Shown: positions 12,021 through 23,355, numbered from the stretch's first letter. The stretch: 64,000 nt of DNA from Nostoc sp. DedQUE12b (GCF_034530835.1 NZ_JAVRCI010000020.1:11572-75571); one strand, 5' to 3'. Notes: a model not told the origin generated them from the letters alone. Program-made: numbers and translations.

Positions 12021-13946
12021 TTACTCGTGATGATTGCTTTTAAGTTGACCATCTTCCATATAAATAATGCGGTCAGCAATATCTAAAATGCGGTTGTCGT
12101 GGGTAACAAGTAAAATGGTACAGTCTTGTTCTTTAGCGAGCTTCTGCATTAGTTCAACAACATCGCGCCCAGATTTTTTATCGAGTGCGGCAGTAGGTTC
12201 ATCAGCTAAGACAATTTTAGGATAACTCACTAAAGCACGAGCAATAGCTACCCGTTGTTTTTGCCCACCAGAAAGATTTTCGGGGTAGTAATTGAGACGC
12301 TCTGCTAAACCAACAGCCTCTAGCATGGTCATTGCTTTGCTGTTTATATCATTATTTAAATACTCTTTATGCAATTCCAATGACATACGCACATTTTCTT
12401 GAGCAGTTAAAAATGTCATCAGGTTATGCGCTTGAAAAATATAACCAATTTGGCGGCGTAATTTAGCTAACTGCTGTTTATTAGCTCCACAAATTTCCTG
12501 CCCCAAAATTTTCAAACTACCTTCTTGAGCAGAACGCAAACCGCCCATTAAAGTCAAGAGAGTAGTTTTACCTGAGCCGGAAGGTCCAGTCAGAATTACA
12601 ATTTCCCCCGCATAAATTTCTAAGTTAATGTTAAATAACACTTGTTTGCGTAATCCACCTGACCCAAAATAATGATTGAGGTTATGCACCGAAATCACAG
12701 GTTCACAAATAGGGAACGATAAATTAGTGATGACTGATTTTACTTCAGGAGTTTGGCTTATCGACGAAACTAGGGCAGTGAGTAACATTATAGTTCCGGC
12801 TCCTACAAATAAACCTGTTAGGCTAACTTCAAGTAATGCTCCAGAAATAGCCTGAGACAAAGGATCAAGAGCTACAGCCGCAAACATTGTTAGACCCATG
12901 ATTCTTCCCTGCATATTTGCAGCTGTATTCTGTTGCAGCCAAGTTATACCCAGTACAGTGACAGTTCCACCCCCTATGCCCATCAGTCCAATTATTCCTG
13001 ATATTATCCAAAGCTGCTGCACAAATCCTAGTGCTATTAGTCCTGCACCCAGACCATAAGACAACAAAATCAGGGGGGTTTTGGGACTCTTGACTGCACT
13101 AAGTTGACTGGCAACTAAGACTCCGATTAATGCACCTATACCGTAAGCTGCTTGCAGATAACCAAATGTTGTGGCGTTACTTTCAAACCGGACATTGACT
13201 AAGGCTGCAACACCGATGATGATTGGCCCTAACATGGCGAAATTAATCATCGCTAGGAGCAATAGGCTGATGCGAATGGGAGGCTGTGTCCAGGCATATT
13301 TTAAACCTAAAATAATTTCACCTATCAAAGCTGGTTCCTGTGTTTCAGTAGCAAGAGGTTGGCGACGACGAATCCGAACCAGGTAGATAAAGAAACTACC
13401 AAACGCAAATATGAGTGTATTGATAGCAAAAGCAATGGTTAACCCAAACGCACCAATTATAAAACCTGCACCAGCAGGACCGATGACTTCGGTGATCTGT
13501 TCACTACCCTGCATCCAAGCGTTTGCTTCTGCCAGTTGGGATTTTCTGACTAATTGAGGCAGTAGGGCAAGAATCGCTGGATATAAAATAGCTTCCAACA
13601 ATCCAAACAGAATAGCGATCGCAATCAAATATATCAGTCGAACAGCATCAAATACTAATAAAGCAGTAGCCAAGGCAATCAAAACAGTATTAATCGTCGC
13701 AGCAATGATGGCAACATTTCTGGTTGACAAGCGATCGCTAATTGCACCTCCTATTAACATAAACAATGCTCGTGGAATGGCAGCCGCCACTAATACAGTT
13801 CCAACAGCCAATCCTGAACCCATTTTTTGGAGTACCAGCCATGTCAACGAGACAAACCAAAATTGAGCAGCACTCAAAATCAGCGTTTGTCCTAACCATA
13901 GCCAGCGAAAGTTAGGAAAATATAACGGCGATCGCAGCATATACAT
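12021..13946 (-). CDS. MFS permease fused to a DevA-family ABC ATPase
   Basis: About 400 aa of hydrophobic MFS (GAISDRLS motif), then EPVISVHNLNHYFG, GPSGSGKT, LSGGQKQRVAIARAL, LADEPTAALD, LLVTHD, all in one open frame. Confidence 0.8.
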   Translation of the reverse strand: MYMLRSPLYFPNFRWLWLGQTLILSAAQFWFVSLTWLVLQKMGSGLAVGTVLVAAAIPRALFMLIGGAISDRLSTRNVAIIAATINTVLIALATALLVFDAVRLIYLIAIAILFGLLEAILYPAILALLPQLVRKSQLAEANAWMQGSEQITEVIGPAGAGFIIGAFGLTIAFAINTLIFAFGSFFIYLVRIRRRQPLATETQEPALIGEIILGLKYAWTQPPIRISLLLLAMINFAMLGPIIIGVAALVNVRFESNATTFGYLQAAYGIGALIGVLVASQLSAVKSPKTPLILLSYGLGAGLIALGFVQQLWIISGIIGLMGIGGGTVTVLGITWLQQNTAANMQGRIMGLTMFAAVALDPLSQAISGALLEVSLTGLFVGAGTIMLLTALVSSISQTPEVKSVITNLSFPICEPVISVHNLNHYFGSGGLRKQVLFNINLEIYAGEIVILTGPSGSGKTTLLTLMGGLRSAQEGSLKILGQEICGANKQQLAKLRRQIGYIFQAHNLMTFLTAQENVRMSLELHKEYLNNDINSKAMTMLEAVGLAERLNYYPENLSGGQKQRVAIARALVSYPKIVLADEPTAALDKKSGRDVVELMQKLAKEQDCTILLVTHDNRILDIADRIIYMEDGQLKSNHHE

Positions 13947-14047: not shown

Positions 14048-14779
14048 CTACACTTTATTCTCAAAATAATTGTTGTCTTGCTCATTCTTGTCAACATAAT
14101 TCTTGCGAAATATCTTCTCAGTCAAGAGATAAGGAATCGGCAATAAAAACCAGACATACTCCCACCAAGATTGATCTATAATAGCGACTGCTATTGTAAA
14201 TAATGAGAAAACAGGCTCTATCAAGATTATCCATCGCGTCAAAATAATAGTTTTACTATCTAGATCAGGAGTAATTAACCGATGCTTATGAGTCGCGTAA
14301 GTCCAGTTCGCAAATGATAGTAACCCAATCAGCGTAGTGTTTACACTGAAGCAGATTTTGACAATTGCATTTCCTGGAAAATAGATGACTAAGGTATCAG
14401 AATAAGGAATCAGAAACATACTCATCAGATAGAGTAAGTAGAGTGATATATGAATATCATCTGATTTTTTGTAATACCTAAATTGCTTAATATGATCAAG
14501 CCAATAGTAACCTACAATAACAAATGCGATTGCATAGCTGGTAAGTGGTTTTACTTGAGCTAGTAAAAATCTAAAAACTTCTGAATTTGTAGGCTGCTGA
14601 AGCTCTTCTGGAAAACCAAGAGTAAAGAAGCACTGTGCCATTGCCAGTGCGAAGATAATATCAGCTATTCTTCCAAGGCGAACAATAGAGCTATTTTGAG
14701 CAGAATTATTGTCTTGAGCTTCATTCATTAAACTATTTCTTATTGATTTTAGAGGATGTATAAAAAACTCCACCCACAA
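14048..14779 (-). CDS. TMEM175 (DUF1211) family channel protein
   Basis: RLGRIADIIFALAM, SYAIAFVIVGYYWLDHIKQF and LIPYS motifs; alternative start at ATG 14728. Confidence 0.75.
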   Translation of the reverse strand: MWVEFFIHPLKSIRNSLMNEAQDNNSAQNSSIVRLGRIADIIFALAMAQCFFTLGFPEELQQPTNSEVFRFLLAQVKPLTSYAIAFVIVGYYWLDHIKQFRYYKKSDDIHISLYLLYLMSMFLIPYSDTLVIYFPGNAIVKICFSVNTTLIGLLSFANWTYATHKHRLITPDLDSKTIILTRWIILIEPVFSLFTIAVAIIDQSWWEYVWFLLPIPYLLTEKIFRKNYVDKNEQDNNYFENKV

Positions 14780-14899: not shown

Positions 14900-15556
14900 T
14901 TACCCTATTTCTGCGAGCAGTTTACCCCATTTCTCGTAGAAATTAGCTTGTCGCTGTTGGATTAAGACTAACTGGAATTGCGAATAATCAGGATTACTCT
15001 GTAAGGCATTTATGAGATTCTCTTTACTTTCAGAATCCATAAAATCTAACAATGGCTGCCTAACGTCCAGAGCGCAATTCAAAGCCTCAGTCATCCGAGA
15101 AAACCAGATCGGCGAATAAGTTTTATAGTTTACAGCACGGATATCTTTCCTACAGTTCTGACTACCACACTTACATACCGCATAAGTTCTATCGTTAGAT
15201 TTGAAACATGCATCAAGCAAGGCATAATCTAATGTTATTTCCTCACCTTCAGCAATATTCCTTACGGCAATGGATACCGCATATCCAGTAATAAGAGTGT
15301 TAAAGTCACAGCTATGGTTTATATACTTGGCATTATTCCAATTCAAAACGACATTACCTTCCATATTCACATAAGCAAAAAAATCGATCATTTCCCTAAA
15401 ATTTACATCTAAAGAAGCAAACTTGTCTGGTGTAACCTCTATATCAAGAGGATCTTCATACACAACAATAGTCCCTTTGGGAATTGGTTCAGTGGCAAAA
15501 ATACCATATCCAATTTCTGAATTAACAAAGCGAACTTCAGTTGAATGATGTAGCAT
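14900..15556 (-). CDS. SET-domain protein (putative SAM-dependent methyltransferase) with post-SET cysteines
   Basis: GYGIFATEPIPKG, YINHSCDFN, EEITLDY, CKCGSQNCR. Confidence 0.88.
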   Translation of the reverse strand: MLHHSTEVRFVNSEIGYGIFATEPIPKGTIVVYEDPLDIEVTPDKFASLDVNFREMIDFFAYVNMEGNVVLNWNNAKYINHSCDFNTLITGYAVSIAVRNIAEGEEITLDYALLDACFKSNDRTYAVCKCGSQNCRKDIRAVNYKTYSPIWFSRMTEALNCALDVRQPLLDFMDSESKENLINALQSNPDYSQFQLVLIQQRQANFYEKWGKLLAEIG

Positions 15557-15674: not shown

Positions 15675-15974
15675 TCAGGTTGAGTGGCAAAAAGAAATAG
15701 AGAATAGGTGATTAATATCTTCGCCAAAATAGAGGTAAATGCCAATACGAAGATGATCTAGGCTATCAACATCAATTTGGTTGTTCCATAATTGTCTATA
15801 AGTATCTAGGATACCGTATAAAATATCTAGATTATCTGCACATAGGCCCTGCTGTGCTTCTGGTAATTTATATCAGGGAATAGTAGGACAAAAATGGTGA
15901 ACATAGTGATAACTTGCATTATGAAAGAAAAAATTAACGACTTTTCTTGAATAAAGTTTGTTTAGGTAATCATG
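15675..15974 (-). pseudogene. C-terminal remnant of a membrane fatty-acid desaturase (not in the ORF track)
   Basis: Minus-strand frame reads KVVNFFFHNASYHYVHHFCPTIP*YKLPEAQQGL. This is the third His box (HxxHH at 15894-15908) followed by P-x-I-P-W-Y-x-L-P, with TGG changed to TGA at 15873-15875. Confidence 0.75.
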
Positions 15975-16165: not shown

Positions 16166-19100
16166 TTATTCAGCACTACTTAGCACAAAATCTACATATT
16201 GATGAGTAAACTGCTTCTCACATGGCGGACACCAGTGTAAATAAGTATCAACTTGGTCTGTATTGATATTCCTGAACATCGTATTAAATTGTTTTTCTAA
16301 CTCAGGTGATACCACTGATTTCAATAGTTTCATGCCCTTTTTATCTGTATTCCGAACATACTCTTCATACTTATCAACAAAAGTTCTGAGTGGCACAATC
16401 TCAACGTCCTTATTCAATTTCTGGAAGTAGCTAATTACATCAGACCAATTCAGTGGTTCTGGATTATAAAAAGTGTAGTTGTGTTTTCTCTCATTAATAG
16501 ATAGTAACGATGTAGAAACGATCGTCTTAGCCGCATATTCAACTGACATCAAATCGAAATCAGCATCCATATCAGGAATACAACCTATATGAGAAATGGC
16601 ACAGAGGAAATTCTCAAAGGCATCTTCATCGATAAAAAAGTCGTCGTCTATATTCTCGTAAGCCTTTTCTATCAAGGCAAATAGTTTGTTCAATGGGGTG
16701 TTTTGCTCGATATGCTTGACCCGCAGGGTATATAAATAGCCTAATCGGTAGTTGACCCACGGGTATCCCTGTTCTGCGAGGCGTAATACGATTTGCTCTG
16801 TCACATACTTGGTTTGTGCATATCCATTAACAAGACCAATGGGGATAGGTTGATTTGCGCAGTCTTCTAGCAAGGACGCGGCACAACTCGACACATTGTA
16901 AAGAGATTTAACCTTTCCGGCTAATGCGAAATCTGCAACTTCAATAGTGCCAATAACATTGGTATTTTTGATGATGTCGTATGGTAGATAGAAGTTATCT
17001 ACAGCCGCTACATGATATACGCTATCAATGTTTTGTGCTAATTCTTCATAGCGATCATTTTCTAGCCCAAATCGCTTCTTAGACATATCACCGATAATAA
17101 TTTGTACGCGATTCTCCCATCCTGGTAAGAAATGAACATCGAACTTTCGCGCTGTTTTTTTGATTCGTTGAAGACCTGCTTCTTCATTGGCTGCTCGAAC
17201 TAAACAAGCAATATTGAGATTAGTAGTGTCGAGCAGTTCTTTTAAAAAATAAGTACCGACAAAACCCGATGCTCCGGTAAGTAAGCAAGTATTGGTTTGA
17301 CGGCTCTGGCTTACACTAACTTCGTTGTCACGACGACGAAGAAGGTATTCTAAAGCATTTTCTATTTCTATATTTAGAGGTTGGCTGTGTGTCAGTCTAA
17401 CTTTCGACCCGCCTTCACCAGAGATGGCACGAACTATATCGTCAATCATCCCCAAGAAGGTATTCGCATAGAAAAAAGCTTCTGTAGGAATTTGACAACC
17501 TAGTTCCCCTTCAAGTGTGCTATGAATTTCAATGATTTTTAAAGAGTCGATTCCATAGAAAAAGATTGACTTCTCTACATCAAAATCAGCCATTCGTACC
17601 TGATATCTCTTAGTTAGAATCTGTATGAGGCTAGTAAAGACCTTGAGGTGCATTGGCCCCATAGATGTGATCCGTTCAAATGTCTTTTCAATATTCAACA
17701 TACTTACGTCTCCTTTTGATTGAGTTCTAGATTCTTCTTTAGGCCATTTAGCTAGAGCATCAAGATTGTTTTGGAGAAACTCTTGTTTGCACTGTTGTCT
17801 ACGGATTTTGCCGCTAGATGTTTTCGGGATTTGCATATGTCCTAAAAACACGAGTTGGCGTAAGGGCATCTCGAAGTTATCTCCCAAAGCGAGACAAATA
17901 GCTTCAGCCAGTTCCTCCAAATAACTAGCTCGACGCAGATTGATGACACCTGTTTTTGTTAATTCAGCAAAAATTACCAATTCCTCGCCAGCTTCACCTG
18001 GGACACTAAAAGCGGCGACACAACTGAAGCGAATATCAGGATGTGCCTGCTGCACACAAATCTCAATGTCTTGGGGGTAGTAATTCACACCATTGACGAT
18101 AATGATGTCTTTGATTCGGCCTGTAATGTATAGTTCGCCCTTCTCATCAATAAAGCCCAGATCACCGGTACGGAGGTAAGTCCGACTGTCATCTGGCAAA
18201 GAAACTAGGGTCTTGTCCGTGGCTTCTGGATTGTTGTAATAACCAGCCATGACGTTAGAACCAGTAGTCCAAATTTCTCCGACATGATTTGGGGATAATA
18301 CACAATTTTTATCAGGATCGACAATATAAATTCTTTGGTCTAGCCAAGGGTGTCCACAACCGACAAAAACCTTTTCTTTGCTGCTGTCGGTCGCTTCTTG
18401 GGCTATGTTGTACTGACCCAGTGCTGTCCAATCAACTGCCTTAAAAACTGGGTCTTGATCAACATATCCAGAAGATATGTATACTGTCGCCTCGGCCATG
18501 CCATAAGCAGGGAGGAACATATGAGGCTTGAATCCGTTTTCCGCAAACTTTTCACAGAAGTCCCGTATAGTTTCTGGATTGATGGGTTCGGCGGCGTTAA
18601 TTGCCATCCGCAACGAGGATAGATCGAGGGTCTTTTGATCGCTGGGCTGGATTTTATCAACACATAGTTGATAGGCGAAGTTAGGTGCACCTGTATATGC
18701 AGCACGGTATTTACTAATGGCACGTAGCCATTGTATTGGTTGGGAGGCAAAGGTTGCTGGGGCGAGTAGCACACAATGACCGCCACTATAAAGGCTGTGC
18801 AGAAGATGAGCGACTAAACCGAGGTCGTGATAGTGTGGCAACCAAGATACTGAAGTAGAATCGGCATCGGCATGACTCATGGCTACAATCATCTCTAGGT
18901 TATTGAGACAATTTTTATGGCTAATCATCACACCTTTTGGTAGTGAGGTCGAACCAGAAGTGAACTGCAAGAAAGCGATCACCGAGCCATCGATCTCTGG
19001 AAGAGGTAACTTCTGAGAGTTCAATGCCTCTTTAGTCATGTCTGTTGGTACATAAATCAGATCCTTAGGCCAGTTTTCTTCTTTGCTTAAGACATCATAA

Positions 19101-19480
19101 AAAGCTTGTTGATGGCTAGCAGGAAGTAGTATTGCTGAGGCTTTTGTGGCAACTACGATATCTGCAATTTTCTTGTTGGAACGATTGTGTTTTGGGATAT
19201 GGATAGGTGCAGGCAATACCCCAGCATAAAGGCATCCGAAGAATGCAACTATAAATTCGATTCCAGGTGGATAAAGCAAAATGGCATTCTGTGATCGCAG
19301 TCCCTGAGATAACAACCCTTGGGCTATATCAATAGCCTGAGAGTACATATCTTTGTAGGTAATATAGCTATTCTCTGCACCATGAGAATCGAGCATTGTA
19401 TAAGCCCTACGGTCAGGCTGTACCTCAGTCCAGTAAGTAAGAACCTCAGCCAAGTTATTAAAGCCTTGAGACTTGATCAT
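16166..19480 (-). CDS. Fatty acyl-AMP ligase - acyl carrier protein - thioester reductase (FAAL-ACP-R)
   Basis: FLQFTSGSTSLPKGV, WLPHYHDLGL, PAYGMAEATV, YLRTGDLGF, IPKTSSGKIRR (FAAL); YGIDSLKI (phosphopantetheine Ser); LLTGASGFVG and YAQTK (extended SDR R domain). Confidence 0.9.
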   Translation of the reverse strand: MIKSQGFNNLAEVLTYWTEVQPDRRAYTMLDSHGAENSYITYKDMYSQAIDIAQGLLSQGLRSQNAILLYPPGIEFIVAFFGCLYAGVLPAPIHIPKHNRSNKKIADIVVATKASAILLPASHQQAFYDVLSKEENWPKDLIYVPTDMTKEALNSQKLPLPEIDGSVIAFLQFTSGSTSLPKGVMISHKNCLNNLEMIVAMSHADADSTSVSWLPHYHDLGLVAHLLHSLYSGGHCVLLAPATFASQPIQWLRAISKYRAAYTGAPNFAYQLCVDKIQPSDQKTLDLSSLRMAINAAEPINPETIRDFCEKFAENGFKPHMFLPAYGMAEATVYISSGYVDQDPVFKAVDWTALGQYNIAQEATDSSKEKVFVGCGHPWLDQRIYIVDPDKNCVLSPNHVGEIWTTGSNVMAGYYNNPEATDKTLVSLPDDSRTYLRTGDLGFIDEKGELYITGRIKDIIIVNGVNYYPQDIEICVQQAHPDIRFSCVAAFSVPGEAGEELVIFAELTKTGVINLRRASYLEELAEAICLALGDNFEMPLRQLVFLGHMQIPKTSSGKIRRQQCKQEFLQNNLDALAKWPKEESRTQSKGDVSMLNIEKTFERITSMGPMHLKVFTSLIQILTKRYQVRMADFDVEKSIFFYGIDSLKIIEIHSTLEGELGCQIPTEAFFYANTFLGMIDDIVRAISGEGGSKVRLTHSQPLNIEIENALEYLLRRRDNEVSVSQSRQTNTCLLTGASGFVGTYFLKELLDTTNLNIACLVRAANEEAGLQRIKKTARKFDVHFLPGWENRVQIIIGDMSKKRFGLENDRYEELAQNIDSVYHVAAVDNFYLPYDIIKNTNVIGTIEVADFALAGKVKSLYNVSSCAASLLEDCANQPIPIGLVNGYAQTKYVTEQIVLRLAEQGYPWVNYRLGYLYTLRVKHIEQNTPLNKLFALIEKAYENIDDDFFIDEDAFENFLCAISHIGCIPDMDADFDLMSVEYAAKTIVSTSLLSINERKHNYTFYNPEPLNWSDVISYFQKLNKDVEIVPLRTFVDKYEEYVRNTDKKGMKLLKSVVSPELEKQFNTMFRNINTDQVDTYLHWCPPCEKQFTHQYVDFVLSSAE
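17701..17716 (-). promoter_or_regulatory. Internal Shine-Dalgarno sequence and in-frame ATG (Met594) at the start of the ACP-R half
   Basis: Minus strand reads AAAGGAG-acgtaagt-ATG with an 8-nt spacer. Confidence 0.45.
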
Positions 19481-20017: not shown

Positions 20018-20066
20018 CTCACGGCAGTGGTGTTTTGGTAAAACCTCAAAACACCACTGCCGTGAG
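20018..20066. other. Perfect 20-bp inverted repeat (9-nt loop) between the Coq4-like gene and FAAL-ACP-R
   Basis: CTCACGGCAGTGGTGTTTTG-gtaaaacct-CAAAACACCACTGCCGTGAG. Confidence 0.8.
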
Positions 20067-20183: not shown

Positions 20184-20936
20184 TCAAGTCAGCACAGGTT
20201 CAATCTGGAAAATGGGTTGGATATTCAGTTCTGCCTGCCATACAGCAACTGGTTTTTCCCAGGCTTCTTCCCATTTTTGAGCAATCAATGGTTTAGCTGT
20301 TTGCCCCATTTCCCATCCCTTGGCGATCGCACTTAGAAGTAGAGATAGTTCGTCTGGTTGCAATAATGTAGTACTGATCAGGCTATTAGCGATGAGCATA
20401 CTTGCAAGGGGTAGCTGAAACTGCGCTAGATAGAAAGCTTGCAAACCAATTTCACCGATTTCACTAGTGTCGAATCCGGTAATAATGTGCCAGATATCGT
20501 GGGTTTGTTGCCAGCGATTTTCTACATAGCTGGTATCTGAGTCAATTTTGACTTTTGCCGTTATTGTCTGCAAACCTGCCTCTTTCAAACTACTGGCATA
20601 GGTATAGCCTAAGGAATCTTGGGGATATTCCAACAAGGCTTTGAGATCGTGGGGAGGAGCCATATAGCGTTCAGCAATAATTGAGGCGACTTCTGGCTTG
20701 GCTTTCATAGACTCAACAGTGAGCTGGAAGGCTCGATTGTCAACTAGGCTAGTACTTAACTCCTCAACTAAATCTAGATTTCCTCTATCGTCAAGAAGTA
20801 CTTTCAAAAATGCTTTTGTAGTTTTAAAAATACGAAAGAAGTTTTTTACACTCGTCCATATTGAGCCATTGGCTTGTGGCTTCCCGCTCTGATTACTTGT
20901 GACTGATGATAAATACTTGTAATTCATAGACTCCAT
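20184..20936 (-). CDS. Coq4 family protein
   Basis: YPQDSLGYTY and QTHDIWHIITGFDTSEIGEIGLQAF (HDxxH...E metal motif of Coq4). Confidence 0.85.
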   Translation of the reverse strand: MESMNYKYLSSVTSNQSGKPQANGSIWTSVKNFFRIFKTTKAFLKVLLDDRGNLDLVEELSTSLVDNRAFQLTVESMKAKPEVASIIAERYMAPPHDLKALLEYPQDSLGYTYASSLKEAGLQTITAKVKIDSDTSYVENRWQQTHDIWHIITGFDTSEIGEIGLQAFYLAQFQLPLASMLIANSLISTTLLQPDELSLLLSAIAKGWEMGQTAKPLIAQKWEEAWEKPVAVWQAELNIQPIFQIEPVLT

Positions 20937-20972: not shown

Positions 20973-21011
20973 TGAACAATGTTCACATATCTATAATATG
21001 AACATTGTTCA
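20973..21011. promoter_or_regulatory. Twin TetR-type operators TGAACAWTGTTCA
   Basis: TGAACAATGTTCA at 20973-20985 and TGAACATTGTTCA at 20999-21011, between the divergent starts of the Coq4-like gene and TetR. Confidence 0.8.
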
Positions 21012-22092: not shown

Positions 22093-23355
22093 TTAAGAAT
22101 CTGTAAATTTTTTGAAAGCTAGGCTGACATTGTGACCACCAAAACCAAAGGAATTAGAAATAGCTAAATCTATCTTCTGTTTTCGACTTTGGTGTGGAAC
22201 ATAATCCAAATCACATGCTGGATCAGGAGAATCTAAATTGATGGTAGGAGGAATTTCATCTTTTGCAACTGTTAATGCTGTGGCGACTGCTTCAATACCT
22301 CCAGAACCGCCCAAAAGGTGGCCAGTCATGGATTTTGGCGAACTAATACTAATATTATAAGCGTGTTGTCCTAAGGCTTTTTTGATTGCTAAGGTTTCAT
22401 TAACATCATTGGCAGGCGTACTAGTACCATGAGCATTAATGTAGCTGACTTGATTCACGGATAAACCAGCATCTTTGATTGCTAGTTCTATAGCTCTAGC
22501 AGCTCCTATACCTCCAGGAATGGGAGATGTCATGTGGTAAGCATCACAGGTCATCCCATAGCCAACGATTTCTGCATATATGTTAGCTCCACGGCTTTTG
22601 GCATGTTCTAGTTCTTCTAGGAACAGAATGCCAGCTCCTTCCCCCATGACAAATCCATCGCGGTCATAGTTAAAAGGACGAGAAGCGCAAGTTGGTTCTT
22701 CGTTACGAGTTGATAGAGCTTTGGCAGCAGCAAACCCAGCAACTAATAAAGGGGTAATGGGTGCTTCTGTACCACCGCAGATCATAGCTTGAGCATAACC
22801 CTGTTGAATTAAACGAAAAGCTTCTCCTATAGCATTGCTCCCCGCAGCACAGGCGGTGACTGTACAGGAGTTAGGGCCTTTTGCTCCTGTATGAATTGCT
22901 ATTAATCCAGCAGCCATATTGGCAATAAACATTGGTATCAAAAAAGGACTACATCGGTCGGGGCCTTTGGTGAGATAAATTTCTTGTTGTTTTTCTAAAA
23001 CATTCATGCCTCCACAACCATTACCGATGATTGCCCCAACTAAAGGGGCATTTAATTCAGTGATTGTGAATTTAGCATCTGCGATCGCTTGTAGGCTAGC
23101 ACACACTGCAAAGTAAGCATAGCGATCCATACGTTTAACTTCCTTGCGCTCTAAATAATCACATGGATCAAAGCCTTTGACCTCTGCTGCAATCTGACAG
23201 TCGTGTTTTGAGGCATCAAAACACCTAATAGGTGCGACACCACTACGGCCTTGCATTAGCCCCTGCCAATATTCTGCTACAGTGTTTCCTATGGGGGTAA
23301 TTGCTCCTAAACCTGTAATTACTACACGTTTTAACTGCAAGTTTTGCATAATCAA
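22093..23355 (-). CDS. fabF: Beta-ketoacyl-ACP synthase II, stand-alone copy
   Basis: RVVITGLGAITPIG, TACAAG (catalytic Cys), INAHGTST, GHLLGG, SNSFGFGGHN; likely ATG at 23349. Confidence 0.92.
   Translation of the reverse strand: MIMQNLQLKRVVITGLGAITPIGNTVAEYWQGLMQGRSGVAPIRCFDASKHDCQIAAEVKGFDPCDYLERKEVKRMDRYAYFAVCASLQAIADAKFTITELNAPLVGAIIGNGCGGMNVLEKQQEIYLTKGPDRCSPFLIPMFIANMAAGLIAIHTGAKGPNSCTVTACAAGSNAIGEAFRLIQQGYAQAMICGGTEAPITPLLVAGFAAAKALSTRNEEPTCASRPFNYDRDGFVMGEGAGILFLEELEHAKSRGANIYAEIVGYGMTCDAYHMTSPIPGGIGAARAIELAIKDAGLSVNQVSYINAHGTSTPANDVNETLAIKKALGQHAYNISISSPKSMTGHLLGGSGGIEAVATALTVAKDEIPPTINLDSPDPACDLDYVPHQSRKQKIDLAISNSFGFGGHNVSLAFKKFTDS

What the first reader, a model, noticed from the sequence alone, without database searches (positions are those of the whole stretch)
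16166..19480. Stand-alone FAAL-ACP-thioester reductase: a CAR-like architecture built on a FAAL
Seen: a FAAL adenylation domain, a carrier domain with GIDSL, and an extended SDR domain with TGASGFVG and YAQTK, with no KS or condensation domain. Established: carboxylic acid reductases use A-T-R, and cyanobacteria normally make fatty aldehydes through acyl-ACP reductase (AAR). Inference: an AAR-independent route from free fatty acid to fatty aldehyde or alcohol, of possible biotechnological use.
Basis: partly seen in the sequence, partly recalled or inferred. Interest (0 to 1): 0.75.

Follow-up and report, generated by a model that had tools for sequence, protein, structure and literature searches.

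The report
Fatty-acid reductase in a lipid-export cassette
The gene is a real three-part enzyme that should turn free fatty acids into fatty aldehydes, and it belongs to a rare, conserved gene cassette that repeatedly sits beside polyamine-making genes and cation pumps, which suggests an undescribed exported cationic lipid rather than a simple aldehyde or alcohol route.

Summary
Observation confirmed. Window 16166-19480 (-) is one intact 1104-aa ORF: FAAL adenylation domain, carrier domain (GIDSL) and thioester reductase (TGASGFVG, YAQTK). It has no KS or C domain. The A domain is FAAL-type by HMM scores, PDB hits, the FAAL-specific insertion and a tree; it is not CAR or NRPS type.

Interpretation partly supported. 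Reducing a fatty acid to an aldehyde is the likely chemistry, but the enzyme does not act alone.

- In cyanobacteria the orthologues always lie with desaturase-like genes, a TMEM175-like gene and an MFS exporter fused to a component of a MacB/DevBCA-type ABC pump. SET or GNAT, and TetR/Coq4, are often present.
- In Proteobacteria they lie with Qac-type SMR, MacAB-TolC and TetR.
- In four separate lineages, four non-homologous triamine pathways lie directly beside the gene: bacterial homospermidine synthase, a deoxyhypusine-synthase-like enzyme, SpeD/SpeE, and ADC/CANSDH/CANSDC.
- In the Chitiniphilus family, homospermidine synthase is present in 4 of 56 genomes. Three of these are exactly the three that carry this gene, and there it is adjacent.

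My best reading is that the aldehyde is coupled to a polyamine and the cationic lipid is exported. The coupling step is inferred, not shown.

The window's copy of the cassette is reduced: only a remnant of the first desaturase-like gene remains, and the pump's other two genes lie on another contig. The family is rare (2 of 401 cyanobacterial genomes). I found no paper describing it.

The parts
16166..19480 (-). FAAL-ACP-thioester reductase ORF (1104 aa, P0001)
18236..19432 (-). Adenylation domain, N-terminal part (aa 17-415), FAAL type
   Evidence: Pfam AMP-binding 1.7e-63. The best NCBIfam matches are FAAL subfamilies at 385-395 bits, against 183 bits for FACL and 150 bits for amino-acid A domains. 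The top 15 PDB hits are all FAALs.
18365..18469 (-). FAAL-specific insertion (about aa 338-372, after YGMAE)
   Evidence: An insertion of about 30 aa is shared with FAALs and absent from three non-FAAL ANL enzymes of the same genome. It aligns without gaps to the FAAL structure 7R7F.
17753..18112 (-). Adenylation domain, C-terminal subdomain (aa 457-576)
   Evidence: Pfam PF23024 AMP-dom_DIP2-like; contains the PKTSSGKIRR motif
17450..17626 (-). Carrier (ACP) domain; the phosphopantetheine serine is Ser646 in GIDSL (codon 17543-17545)
   Evidence: Pfam PP-binding; motif position; the motif is invariant in orthologues; a PPTase is present in the genome
16169..17281 (-). Thioester reductase domain (aa 734-1104) with TGASGFVG, YAQTK and the conserved C-terminal WCPPC
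   Evidence: Pfam NAD_binding_4 4.4e-42; TIGR01746 at 195 bits; PDB MxaA 4U7W at 109 bits; motifs invariant in orthologues
15741..15935 (-). Remnant of the first desaturase/hydroxylase-like gene of the cassette (last about 75 codons of Des1)
   Evidence: tblastn with Crocosphaera Des1 gives 48% identity over aa 239-313 of 319; there is no other Des1 or Des2 copy in the genome. Des1 follows the reductase gene, directly or after SET, in every other cyanobacterial locus with enough downstream sequence except L004 and L035/L036.
14900..15556 (-). SET-domain methyltransferase (218 aa; NHSC, EEITLDY and post-SET cysteines intact)
   Evidence: Pfam SET 4e-15; PDB hits are histone-lysine N-methyltransferases; sequence; also in the cassette in L004, L010, L012, L016, L018 and L038
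14048..14779 (-). Divergent TMEM175/DUF1211-family membrane protein
   Evidence: Pfam TMEM175 7e-15; present in every cyanobacterial cassette with enough sequence; the TM1 motif reads RLGRIAD where I recall RxxxFSD as the canonical form
12021..13946 (-). MFS_3 (EntS-like) permease fused to an ABC ATPase (641 aa), the cassette's exporter
   Evidence: Pfam; 84-92% orthologues in all Nostocales loci; in Crocosphaera and Aphanothece the same MFS is fused to a HlyD-type adaptor instead
20184..20936 (-). Coq4-family protein, an accessory member of the cassette in some lineages
   Evidence: Pfam Coq4 1.2e-25; PDB 3MSQ and 6E12; next to the reductase gene in L001, L004, L013 and L017
21037..21669 (+). 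TetR-family regulator, divergent from the Coq4-family gene
   Evidence: Pfam TetR_N and TetR_C_15; conserved in L001, L004, L013-L015 and L017
20973..21011 (.). Two perfect 13-bp palindromes TGAACAWTGTTCA, 13 bp apart, in the TetR/Coq4 divergent gap; a likely TetR operator pair
   Evidence: no similar site (2 mismatches or fewer) lies upstream of the reductase gene
22093..23355 (-). Second FabF (KAS II) copy, syntenic with the cassette in some Nostocales; a possible accessory gene
   Evidence: TIGR03150 at 628 bits; a second copy on C9 at 72% identity and no acpP upstream; also beside the cassette in L013-L015

Best explanation
Tier 1 (about 0.8). The protein is a self-loading fatty acid reductase. 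The FAAL domain adenylates a free long-chain fatty acid and passes it to Ser646 of its own phosphopantetheinylated carrier domain. The C-terminal SDR-type thioester reductase then uses NAD(P)H to release it as a fatty aldehyde. Tier 2 (about 0.45-0.5, inferred). The aldehyde is not the end product. The gene is the core of a rare, horizontally spread cassette whose product is an exported lipophilic cation. Most likely a fatty alkyl chain is joined to a triamine (homospermidine or spermidine), through imine formation with the aldehyde and a second reduction. Optional tailoring would be N-methylation (SET here, a class-I N-methyltransferase elsewhere), N-acetylation (GNAT), or chain or head-group oxidation (desaturase-like Des1/Des2). 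Export would be by an EntS-like MFS working with a MacB/DevBCA-type ABC pump in cyanobacteria, or by Qac-type SMR plus MacAB-TolC or RND in Proteobacteria, under TetR control. The enzyme for the imine reduction is not identified. The smallest clusters (homospermidine synthase, the reductase, efflux genes) leave the R domain itself or a housekeeping reductase as candidates. In this window the cassette is a reduced version: Des1 is a remnant, and the HlyD/FtsX pump genes lie on another contig.
For: Domains, motifs and FAAL identity. The closest solved structure (7R7E-G, 397 bits) is, from memory, the FAAL of cyanobacterial olefin synthase, whose FAAL prefers octadecanoic acid (PMC11730487). The Rossmann and YxxxK motifs are invariant in the orthologues aligned, so redox function is retained. 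Purifying selection. A PPTase is present in the genome. Conserved cassette. Polyamine link through four non-homologous routes directly beside orthologues: (1) bacterial homospermidine synthase 14 nt upstream in Chitiniphilus and likewise adjacent in Chitinolyticbacter (535 bits to PDB 2PH5); (2) a deoxyhypusine-synthase-like 1,9-bis(guanidino)-5-aza-nonane synthase 52 nt upstream, with ADC, AguA and AguB, in Crocosphaera; (3) SpeD and SpeE inside the cassette in L004; (4) ADC, CANSDH and CANSDC lying between the reductase and its MFS_3 in L030. In the Chitiniphilus family homospermidine synthase is in only 4 of 56 genomes, and 3 of these are exactly the 3 genomes with the reductase, where it is adjacent and single copy. 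Cation and amine signals: Qac/EmrE-type SMR directly downstream in four proteobacterial loci, of which the three scanned were typed as Qac/EmrE; two non-homologous methyltransferases whose nearest relatives are N-methyltransferases (SET; a sarcosine/dimethylglycine-N-MT-like enzyme) and GNATs in the tailoring slot. The MFS is fused to either the ABC ATPase or the HlyD adaptor of the same pump type. The A and R domains each form a discrete clade found only together.
Against: There is no biochemical or metabolite evidence, and no paper describing such a product was found. No imine reductase or aminotransferase is conserved in the cassette, and I know of no precedent for a thioester reductase domain reducing an intermolecular imine. 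The Nostocales loci, including this window, and the Aphanothece locus carry no polyamine gene nearby. In Crocosphaera and L030 the polyamine genes are probably the housekeeping set that the cassette lies beside, so those two links are weaker than the homospermidine synthase and SpeD/SpeE ones. Two more distant members of the clade (43-44% identity) sit beside NRPS genes.
Confidence: 0.5

Rival explanations
1. One reading: a self-sufficient route from free fatty acid to fatty aldehyde, or by four-electron reduction to fatty alcohol. The lipid itself is the product, for example for wax, envelope or signalling use, and the lipid pumps export it. The polyamine genes nearby are coincidental.
For: The domain chemistry fits. 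The best solved relative of the R domain is MxaA, which from memory makes an alcohol. DevBCA/MacB-type pumps export glycolipids built on fatty alcohols in heterocyst formers (my knowledge). The Nostocales loci, including the window, have no polyamine gene nearby.
Against: Four non-homologous polyamine pathways lie directly beside orthologues in four lineages, and homospermidine synthase co-occurs with the gene in 3 of 3 carriers against 1 of 53 non-carriers. Qac-type SMR pumps carry lipophilic cations, not neutral lipids. SET, N-methyltransferase-like and GNAT tailoring enzymes have no obvious role on an aldehyde or alcohol.
Confidence: 0.25
2. A stress cassette for free fatty acids. Under TetR control, toxic free fatty acids released from membranes are activated, reduced and pumped out.
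For: TetR regulators and efflux pumps are the most constant neighbours in both phyla. FAALs act on free fatty acids, which cyanobacteria do not accumulate (PMC11730487).
Against: This does not explain the linkage to SET, GNAT, desaturase-like genes and polyamine synthesis. Reduction costs ATP and NADPH and yields a more reactive aldehyde. The family is very rare (2 of 401 and 1 of 400 genomes), unlike a general stress function. In the window the TetR palindromes lie before the Coq4-family gene, and none lies before the reductase gene.
Confidence: 0.08
3. An N-acyl polyamine synthase. The reductase-like domain acts without redox chemistry and lets a polyamine amine attack the thioester, giving an amide.
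For: The polyamine and cation-efflux links are the same as for the best explanation. N-acyl homospermidine-type compounds are known from sponges (from memory).
Against: The NAD(P)H-binding TGxxGxxG motif and the catalytic YxxxK are invariant in the orthologues aligned. Non-redox R* domains typically lose the tyrosine (my knowledge).
Confidence: 0.05
4. A supplier of fatty aldehyde or a lipid starter to an NRPS/PKS assembly line encoded elsewhere in the genome.
For: The more distant clade members P0036 and P0039 sit beside NRPS genes with MbtH. The genome has three large FAAL-primed synthetases.
Against: No NRPS or PKS gene lies in any of the cyanobacterial or Chitiniphilus-type loci examined. 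The genome's other FAALs are built into their own megasynthases and fall in a different clade.
Confidence: 0.05
5. In this particular genome the pathway is a decaying relic, and the enzyme no longer has a physiological product.
For: Des1 is reduced to a 75-codon remnant, and HlyD, FtsX and a separate ABC gene are unlinked on contig C10. A relative carries a truncated reductase fused to the MFS-ABC gene (P0049).
Against: The reductase, SET, TMEM175-like, MFS-ABC, Coq4 and TetR genes are all intact. dN/dS of the reductase gene is 0.11-0.15, even against the closest relative. Other natural variants also lack Des2, or lack Des1 and SET.
Confidence: 0.07

Closest known systems
Carboxylic acid reductases (CAR; e.g. 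Mycobacterium marinum CAR, PDB 5MSO)
   Same: Both have the A-T-R layout on one polypeptide, depend on phosphopantetheine, and use ATP and NADPH to reduce a free acid to an aldehyde. CAR accepts C6-C18 fatty acids (PMC7744569, citing Akhtar 2013).
   Different: The A domain here is not CAR-type. CAR matches only through the R domain, at 66 bits, while FAAL structures score 190-397 bits. This protein has the FAAL-specific insertion. It also sits in a dedicated cassette.
FAAL loading domain of cyanobacterial olefin synthase (Ols); PDB 7R7E-G (identity of the entry from memory)
   Same: It is the closest solved A domain (397 bits over aa 7-579). Both are FAAL-ACP didomains that take free long-chain fatty acids (PMC11730487).
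   Different: Ols continues with KS-AT-KR-ACP-ST-TE. Here the ACP is followed by a reductase. The roughly 690-aa FAAL-ACP proteins that look like split Ols loaders are followed by ACP-R genes, not KS genes.
TamA + TamH (tambjamine fatty-amine module)
   Different: TamH carries a PLP aminotransferase fused to the reductase. No aminotransferase occurs in any cassette examined here. The nitrogen would instead come from a preformed polyamine.
ElbD of Myxococcus xanthus (ether-lipid synthesis)
   Same: It is a multidomain protein that combines fatty acid activation, an ACP and a fatty acyl reductase, and an aldehyde depends on it (PMC9131029).
   Different: The domain order differs (reductase first) and ElbD has an added AGPAT acyltransferase. 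It feeds glycerol ether lipids. It is not a member of this clade.
HglB/HetM-type ACP-thioester reductase of heterocyst glycolipid synthesis
   Same: It has the ACP-R layout, like the split form of this family. A 522-aa relative lies beside the PPTase on contig C75 of this genome. Its role in releasing the glycolipid alcohol is from memory.
   Different: It shares only 31% identity with aa 618-911, has no A domain and works with a PKS. The R clade of the present family is separated from all other reductases by a score gap, from 282 bits or more down to 122 bits or less.
FAAL fused to alpha-aminoadipate-reductase-like domains, as listed by Patil et al. 2021 (PMC8460268)
   Same: That survey notes bacterial FAAL-like domains fused to 'alpha aminoadipate reductases' as PKS/NRPS-independent architectures. 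This is the same kind of architecture.
   Different: The passages I searched in that paper give no function, context or family definition.

Membership tests
Fatty acyl-AMP ligase (FAAL) | ANL-superfamily core motifs are intact | tested here: met
   FTSGSTSLPKG, YGMAE, TGDLG, GRIKD and PKTSSGKIRR are present; Pfam AMP-binding 1.7e-63
Fatty acyl-AMP ligase (FAAL) | FAAL-specific insertion in the N-terminal domain | tested here: met
   An insertion of about 30 aa after YGMAE is shared with FAALs and absent from three non-FAAL ANL enzymes of the same genome
Fatty acyl-AMP ligase (FAAL) | Closer to FAALs than to FACL, NRPS or CAR A domains | tested here: met
   NCBIfam FAAL models score 385-395 bits (below their strict cut-offs), against FACL at 183 and amino-acid A domains at 150. 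The top 15 PDB hits are FAALs and the CAR A domain does not match. The tree places the protein with FAALs, 100* apart from non-FAAL ANL enzymes.
Fatty acyl-AMP ligase (FAAL) | Rejects CoA and transfers the acyl group to holo-ACP | not testable with these tools
   Needs an enzyme assay
Carboxylic acid reductase (CAR) | A-T-R domain order on one chain | tested here: met
Carboxylic acid reductase (CAR) | CAR-type adenylation domain | tested here: not met
   PDB 5MSO matches only aa 726-865 (the R domain) at 66 bits; the A domain matches FAALs
Terminal thioester reductase domain (TIGR01746 / PF07993) | Rossmann TGxxGxxG motif and catalytic YxxxK | tested here: met
   TGASGFVG and YAQTK are present and invariant in the orthologues aligned
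Terminal thioester reductase domain (TIGR01746 / PF07993) | Passes the curated family score | tested here: inconclusive
   Pfam NAD_binding_4 scores 144 bits against a cut-off of 20.1, but TIGR01746 scores 195 bits against a cut-off of 213.35
Carrier protein | GxDS serine motif and a PPTase in the genome | tested here: met
   GIDSL at aa 643-647; PF01648 hit at C75:18097-18396; Sfp-type PPTases lie beside orthologues in L030 and L044
Olefin synthase (Ols) loading module | FAAL-ACP followed by KS-AT-KR-ACP-ST-TE | tested here: not met
   No KS, AT, ST or TE follows in the protein or in the next genes
TamA/TamH fatty-amine module | PLP aminotransferase coupled to the thioester reductase | tested here: not met
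   No aminotransferase domain is in the protein or in any cassette locus

The most novel reading that the evidence does not exclude
This family is the core of an undescribed pathway to natural alkyl-polyamine surfactants, resembling quaternary ammonium compounds when N-methylated. A FAAL-ACP-R enzyme makes a fatty aldehyde that is reductively joined to homospermidine or spermidine, possibly by the reductase domain acting a second time on the imine. A SET-domain enzyme then methylates a small-molecule amine rather than a protein lysine. An MFS physically fused to parts of a MacB-type pump exports the cationic lipid.
Probability: 0.35. Interest if true: 0.85.

Novelty: new variant of a known kind. 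Interest (0 to 1): 0.62.

Why it matters
At the enzyme level this is a FAAL-based counterpart of CAR. It is useful but not surprising, because CAR already reduces fatty acids. The context is what matters. Four non-homologous polyamine pathways, two non-homologous methyltransferases whose nearest relatives are N-methyltransferases, GNATs and Qac-type cation pumps all gather around one rare enzyme clade in both cyanobacteria and Proteobacteria. That pattern predicts a class of bacterial cationic lipids that I did not find in the literature. If confirmed, it would give a natural biosynthetic route to alkyl-polyamine surfactants or antimicrobials. It could be a first small-molecule substrate for a bacterial SET domain. 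It would also explain the fusions between an MFS and components of a MacB/DevBCA-type ABC pump. The prediction can be tested directly with a three-gene cluster from a culturable Chitiniphilus.

Tried and rejected
1. Ols loader idea. The 60-68% identical FAAL-ACP proteins of about 690 aa (Aphanothece, Crocosphaera) looked like split olefin-synthase loading modules. Their next gene is an ACP-R, not a KS, and they nest inside the fused clade. Rejected.
2. Saccharopine-dehydrogenase-like gene as a reductive aminase. The Chitiniphilus gene is an ordinary bacterial homospermidine synthase (535 bits to 2PH5), so it more likely supplies the triamine than couples it.
3. Riboswitch or other known RNA in the long 5' region and the cassette: no Rfam match at E 0.1 or better.
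4. TetR operator upstream of the reductase gene: none at 2 mismatches or fewer. The palindromes occur only in the TetR/Coq4 gap, and not in exact form in other loci.
5. Plasmid-borne orthologues: none covering 80% of the protein or more.
6. Metagenome and genome pattern scans gave only 9 and 11 related loci, mostly already seen.
7. tblastn with a proteobacterial PPTase found nothing in the genome; the Pfam family search did.
9. Literature: six term combinations found no description of this cassette or of a FAAL-reductase-polyamine link.
10. dN/dS for SET at about 60% protein identity is unreliable and was not used.


Full report
**What is there**

Window 16166-19480 (minus strand) is one uninterrupted ORF of 1104 codons. 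Pfam finds four domains:
- AMP-binding, aa 17-415, 1.7e-63
- the FAAL/DIP2-type C-terminal subdomain, aa 457-576
- PP-binding, aa 619-677
- NAD_binding_4, aa 734-985, 4.4e-42

There is no ketosynthase or condensation domain.

**Which kind of adenylation domain**

- The best NCBIfam matches are FAAL subfamilies (385-395 bits). Acyl-CoA ligases reach 183 bits and amino-acid adenylation domains 150 bits.
- The first 15 PDB matches are all FAALs: 7R7E-G at 397 bits, then the Legionella FAAL 3KXW, FadD23, FadD32, FadD28 and E. coli FAAL. NRPS A domains score about 103 bits. CAR (5MSO) matches only through its reductase domain, at 66 bits.
- An insertion of about 30 residues after YGMAE, the FAAL-specific insertion, is shared with FAALs. 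It is missing from three non-FAAL ANL enzymes of the same genome.
- In a tree of 71 A domains the protein falls in a clade (SH-aLRT 98) of 31 sequences. All of them are FAAL-ACP-R proteins or their split FAAL-ACP forms. This clade is apart from the FAALs of NRPS, PKS and oxoamine-synthase fusions.

From memory, 7R7E-G is the FAAL of the olefin synthase of Synechococcus PCC 7002. The FAAL of that enzyme uses free fatty acids and prefers C18 (PMC11730487).

**The reductase and carrier domains**

The reductase domain matches MxaA (4U7W, 109 bits) and a PKS thioester reductase. Its Rossmann and YxxxK motifs are invariant among the six orthologues aligned. It scores 195 bits on TIGR01746, just under the cut-off of 213. 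A search with the reductase part alone shows a discrete clade. Family members score 282 bits or more, and every other reductase scores 122 bits or less.

A PPTase is present in the genome, next to a HetM/HglB-like ACP-reductase paralogue on contig C75. dN/dS against four orthologues is 0.11-0.15. Reduction of a fatty acid to an aldehyde is therefore the well-supported core function. I put this at about 0.8.

**It is not stand-alone**

I compared loci from Mojavia, Halotia, Nostoc CMAA1605, Aliinostoc, Dolichospermum, Aphanothece sacrum, Crocosphaera and several metagenomes. In these the gene is followed by:
- one or two membrane desaturase-like genes (Des1, Des2) in all but three loci (L004, L035/L036)
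- often a SET-domain gene, or in one Dolichospermum-like variant a GNAT
- a TMEM175-like gene
- an EntS-like MFS fused either to an ABC ATPase or to a HlyD adaptor
- HlyD, FtsX and ABC pump genes in most loci

TetR and a Coq4-family gene lie upstream in several lineages. In some cyanobacteria the gene is split into FAAL-ACP and ACP-R. These split forms nest within the fused ones.

The window carries TetR, Coq4, the reductase, SET, TMEM175-like and MFS-ABC genes. Des1 is reduced to its last 75 codons at 15741-15935. The closest HlyD-FtsX-ABC set lies on contig C10.

In Proteobacteria the constant neighbours are TetR, a Qac/EmrE-type SMR, and MacAB-TolC or RND pumps.

**The polyamine link**

Polyamine genes lie directly beside orthologues in four separate lineages, and each lineage uses a different pathway.

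| Lineage | Genes beside the reductase |
|---|---|
| Chitiniphilus, two Chitinolyticbacter | Bacterial homospermidine synthase directly upstream, 14 nt in Chitiniphilus (535 bits to PDB 2PH5) |
| Crocosphaera | Deoxyhypusine-synthase-like 1,9-bis(guanidino)-5-aza-nonane synthase 52 nt upstream (582 bits, over cut-off), next to arginine decarboxylase, agmatine deiminase and an amidase |
| L004 (61% identical) | S-adenosylmethionine decarboxylase and spermidine synthase, between the reductase and the MFS/Coq4/TetR genes |
| L030 (53% identical) | Arginine decarboxylase, carboxynorspermidine synthase and decarboxylase, between the reductase and its MFS_3; an Sfp-type PPTase and a sarcosine/dimethylglycine-N-methyltransferase-like gene upstream |

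In the Chitiniphilus family homospermidine synthase is found in only 4 of 56 genomes. Three of these are exactly the three that carry the reductase, and there it is adjacent and single copy. So in that family it is an accessory gene that travels with the reductase.

The other links are weaker. In the order of the L030 genome the carboxynorspermidine operon is common (54 of 93 genomes) and exists without the cassette. There the cassette lies around a housekeeping operon. The Crocosphaera set also looks like housekeeping.

By my rough estimate, the chance of a polyamine gene lying within a gene or two of a given gene is below 1% per genome. Four hits among about a dozen lineages is therefore very unlikely by chance.

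**Reading**

Four observations point to a lipophilic cation as the product rather than a neutral aldehyde or alcohol:
- the triamine supply genes
- tailoring enzymes whose nearest relatives act on amines: SET, a sarcosine/dimethylglycine-N-methyltransferase-like enzyme, and GNATs
- SMR pumps of the quaternary-ammonium type
- EntS-like MFS and MacB-type export

The retained redox motifs favour an aldehyde that forms an imine with the polyamine and is then reduced to an N-alkyl polyamine. Non-redox amide formation seems less likely. No cassette contains an aminotransferase or a dedicated imine reductase. The smallest clusters hold only homospermidine synthase, the reductase and efflux genes. The second reduction would therefore fall to the reductase domain itself or to a housekeeping enzyme. 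This step is pure inference and has no precedent that I know of. I give the cationic-lipid reading about 0.45-0.5.

**Rivals**

- Detoxification of free fatty acids: 0.08.
- N-acyl polyamine synthesis: 0.05.
- Supply of a starter to an NRPS encoded elsewhere: 0.05. More distant clade members do sit beside NRPS genes.
- A relic in this genome: 0.07.

The genome keeps an aldehyde-deformylating oxygenase, so this is an extra route and does not replace AAR/ADO.

**Distribution and novelty**

The family is rare and patchy:
- 2 of 401 cyanobacterial species genomes
- 1 of 400 genomes in the class of Chitiniphilus
- 3 of 56 genomes in its family
- 1 of 93 genomes in the order of L030
- two copies on mobile elements

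FAAL-ACP-R architectures outside this clade, such as the Legionella protein, arose separately. Patil et al. 2021 list FAAL fusions to aminoadipate-reductase-like domains without giving a function (PMC8460268). CAR, ElbD and TamA/TamH are the closest characterised systems (PMC7744569, PMC9131029, PMC5939613). I found no description of this cassette.

I class it as a new variant of a known kind of enzyme, with a context that may lead to a new lipid class.

Noticed in passing
window 15741-15935 (-): Remnant of the cassette's first desaturase/hydroxylase-like gene: the last 75 codons, 48% identical to Crocosphaera Des1. No intact Des1 or Des2 exists elsewhere in the genome. The only NCBIfam relative of intact Des1 is GntB, the membrane arginine hydroxylase of guanitoxin synthesis (91 bits), not a lipid desaturase.
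   Followed up: yes
window 12021-13946 (-); L011:16797-19298; L012:17540-20134: The same EntS-like MFS is fused to an ABC ATPase in Nostocales and to a HlyD-type adaptor in Aphanothece and Crocosphaera. Two different fusions to parts of one MacB/DevBCA-type pump suggest that the MFS and the tripartite pump work together.
   Followed up: partly
window 20973-20985 and 20999-21011: Two perfect TGAACAWTGTTCA palindromes, 13 bp apart, in the 100-bp gap between TetR and the Coq4-family gene. No similar site lies upstream of the reductase gene, and no exact copy occurs in the other loci.
   Followed up: yes
window 20018-20066: A perfect 20-bp inverted repeat with a 9-nt loop, 118 nt downstream of the Coq4-family gene. 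No T-run follows it, so it is not a canonical terminator. It lies in the 700-bp gap before the reductase gene.
   Followed up: no
window 16220-16234 (aa 1083-1087): A C-terminal WCPPC motif is conserved through most of the FAAL-ACP-R clade, with variants CPPG, CPHC and APPC. More distant thioester reductases keep only CP. Its role is unknown; it may be redox-active or bind a metal.
   Followed up: partly
window 22093-23355 (-): A second FabF (628 bits on TIGR03150) with no acpP upstream. The other copy, on C9, is 72% identical. This copy is syntenic with the cassette in Mojavia, Nostoc CMAA1605 and Aliinostoc.
   Followed up: partly
window 14048-14779 (-): The TMEM175-family protein of the cassette has RLGRIAD where I recall the channel family's RxxxFSD signature in TM1. 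It may not be a potassium channel.
   Followed up: no
P0049 (a relative; no locus fetched): An 848-aa protein joins the end of the A domain, the ACP and the start of the reductase directly to the MFS-ABC exporter. This looks like a deletion that destroyed the reductase in one Dolichospermum-like lineage.
   Followed up: no
L003:8577-9986, L021, L048, L049: In the Chitiniphilus family, bacterial homospermidine synthase is an accessory gene (4 of 56 genomes). It is adjacent to the reductase in all three carriers.
   Followed up: yes
L023:428-3691: A 1087-aa FAAL-ACP-R, 39% identical, on a 4.4-kb contig assigned to a Candidatus Saccharibacteria MAG. This is unexpected for such a reduced genome and may be a binning error.
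   Followed up: no
G000 C75:18097-21366: A PPTase (PF01648) lies next to a 522-aa ACP-thioester-reductase ORF that is 31% identical to aa 618-911 of the protein. This is probably the hetI/hetM (hglB) pair of the heterocyst glycolipid island.
   Followed up: no
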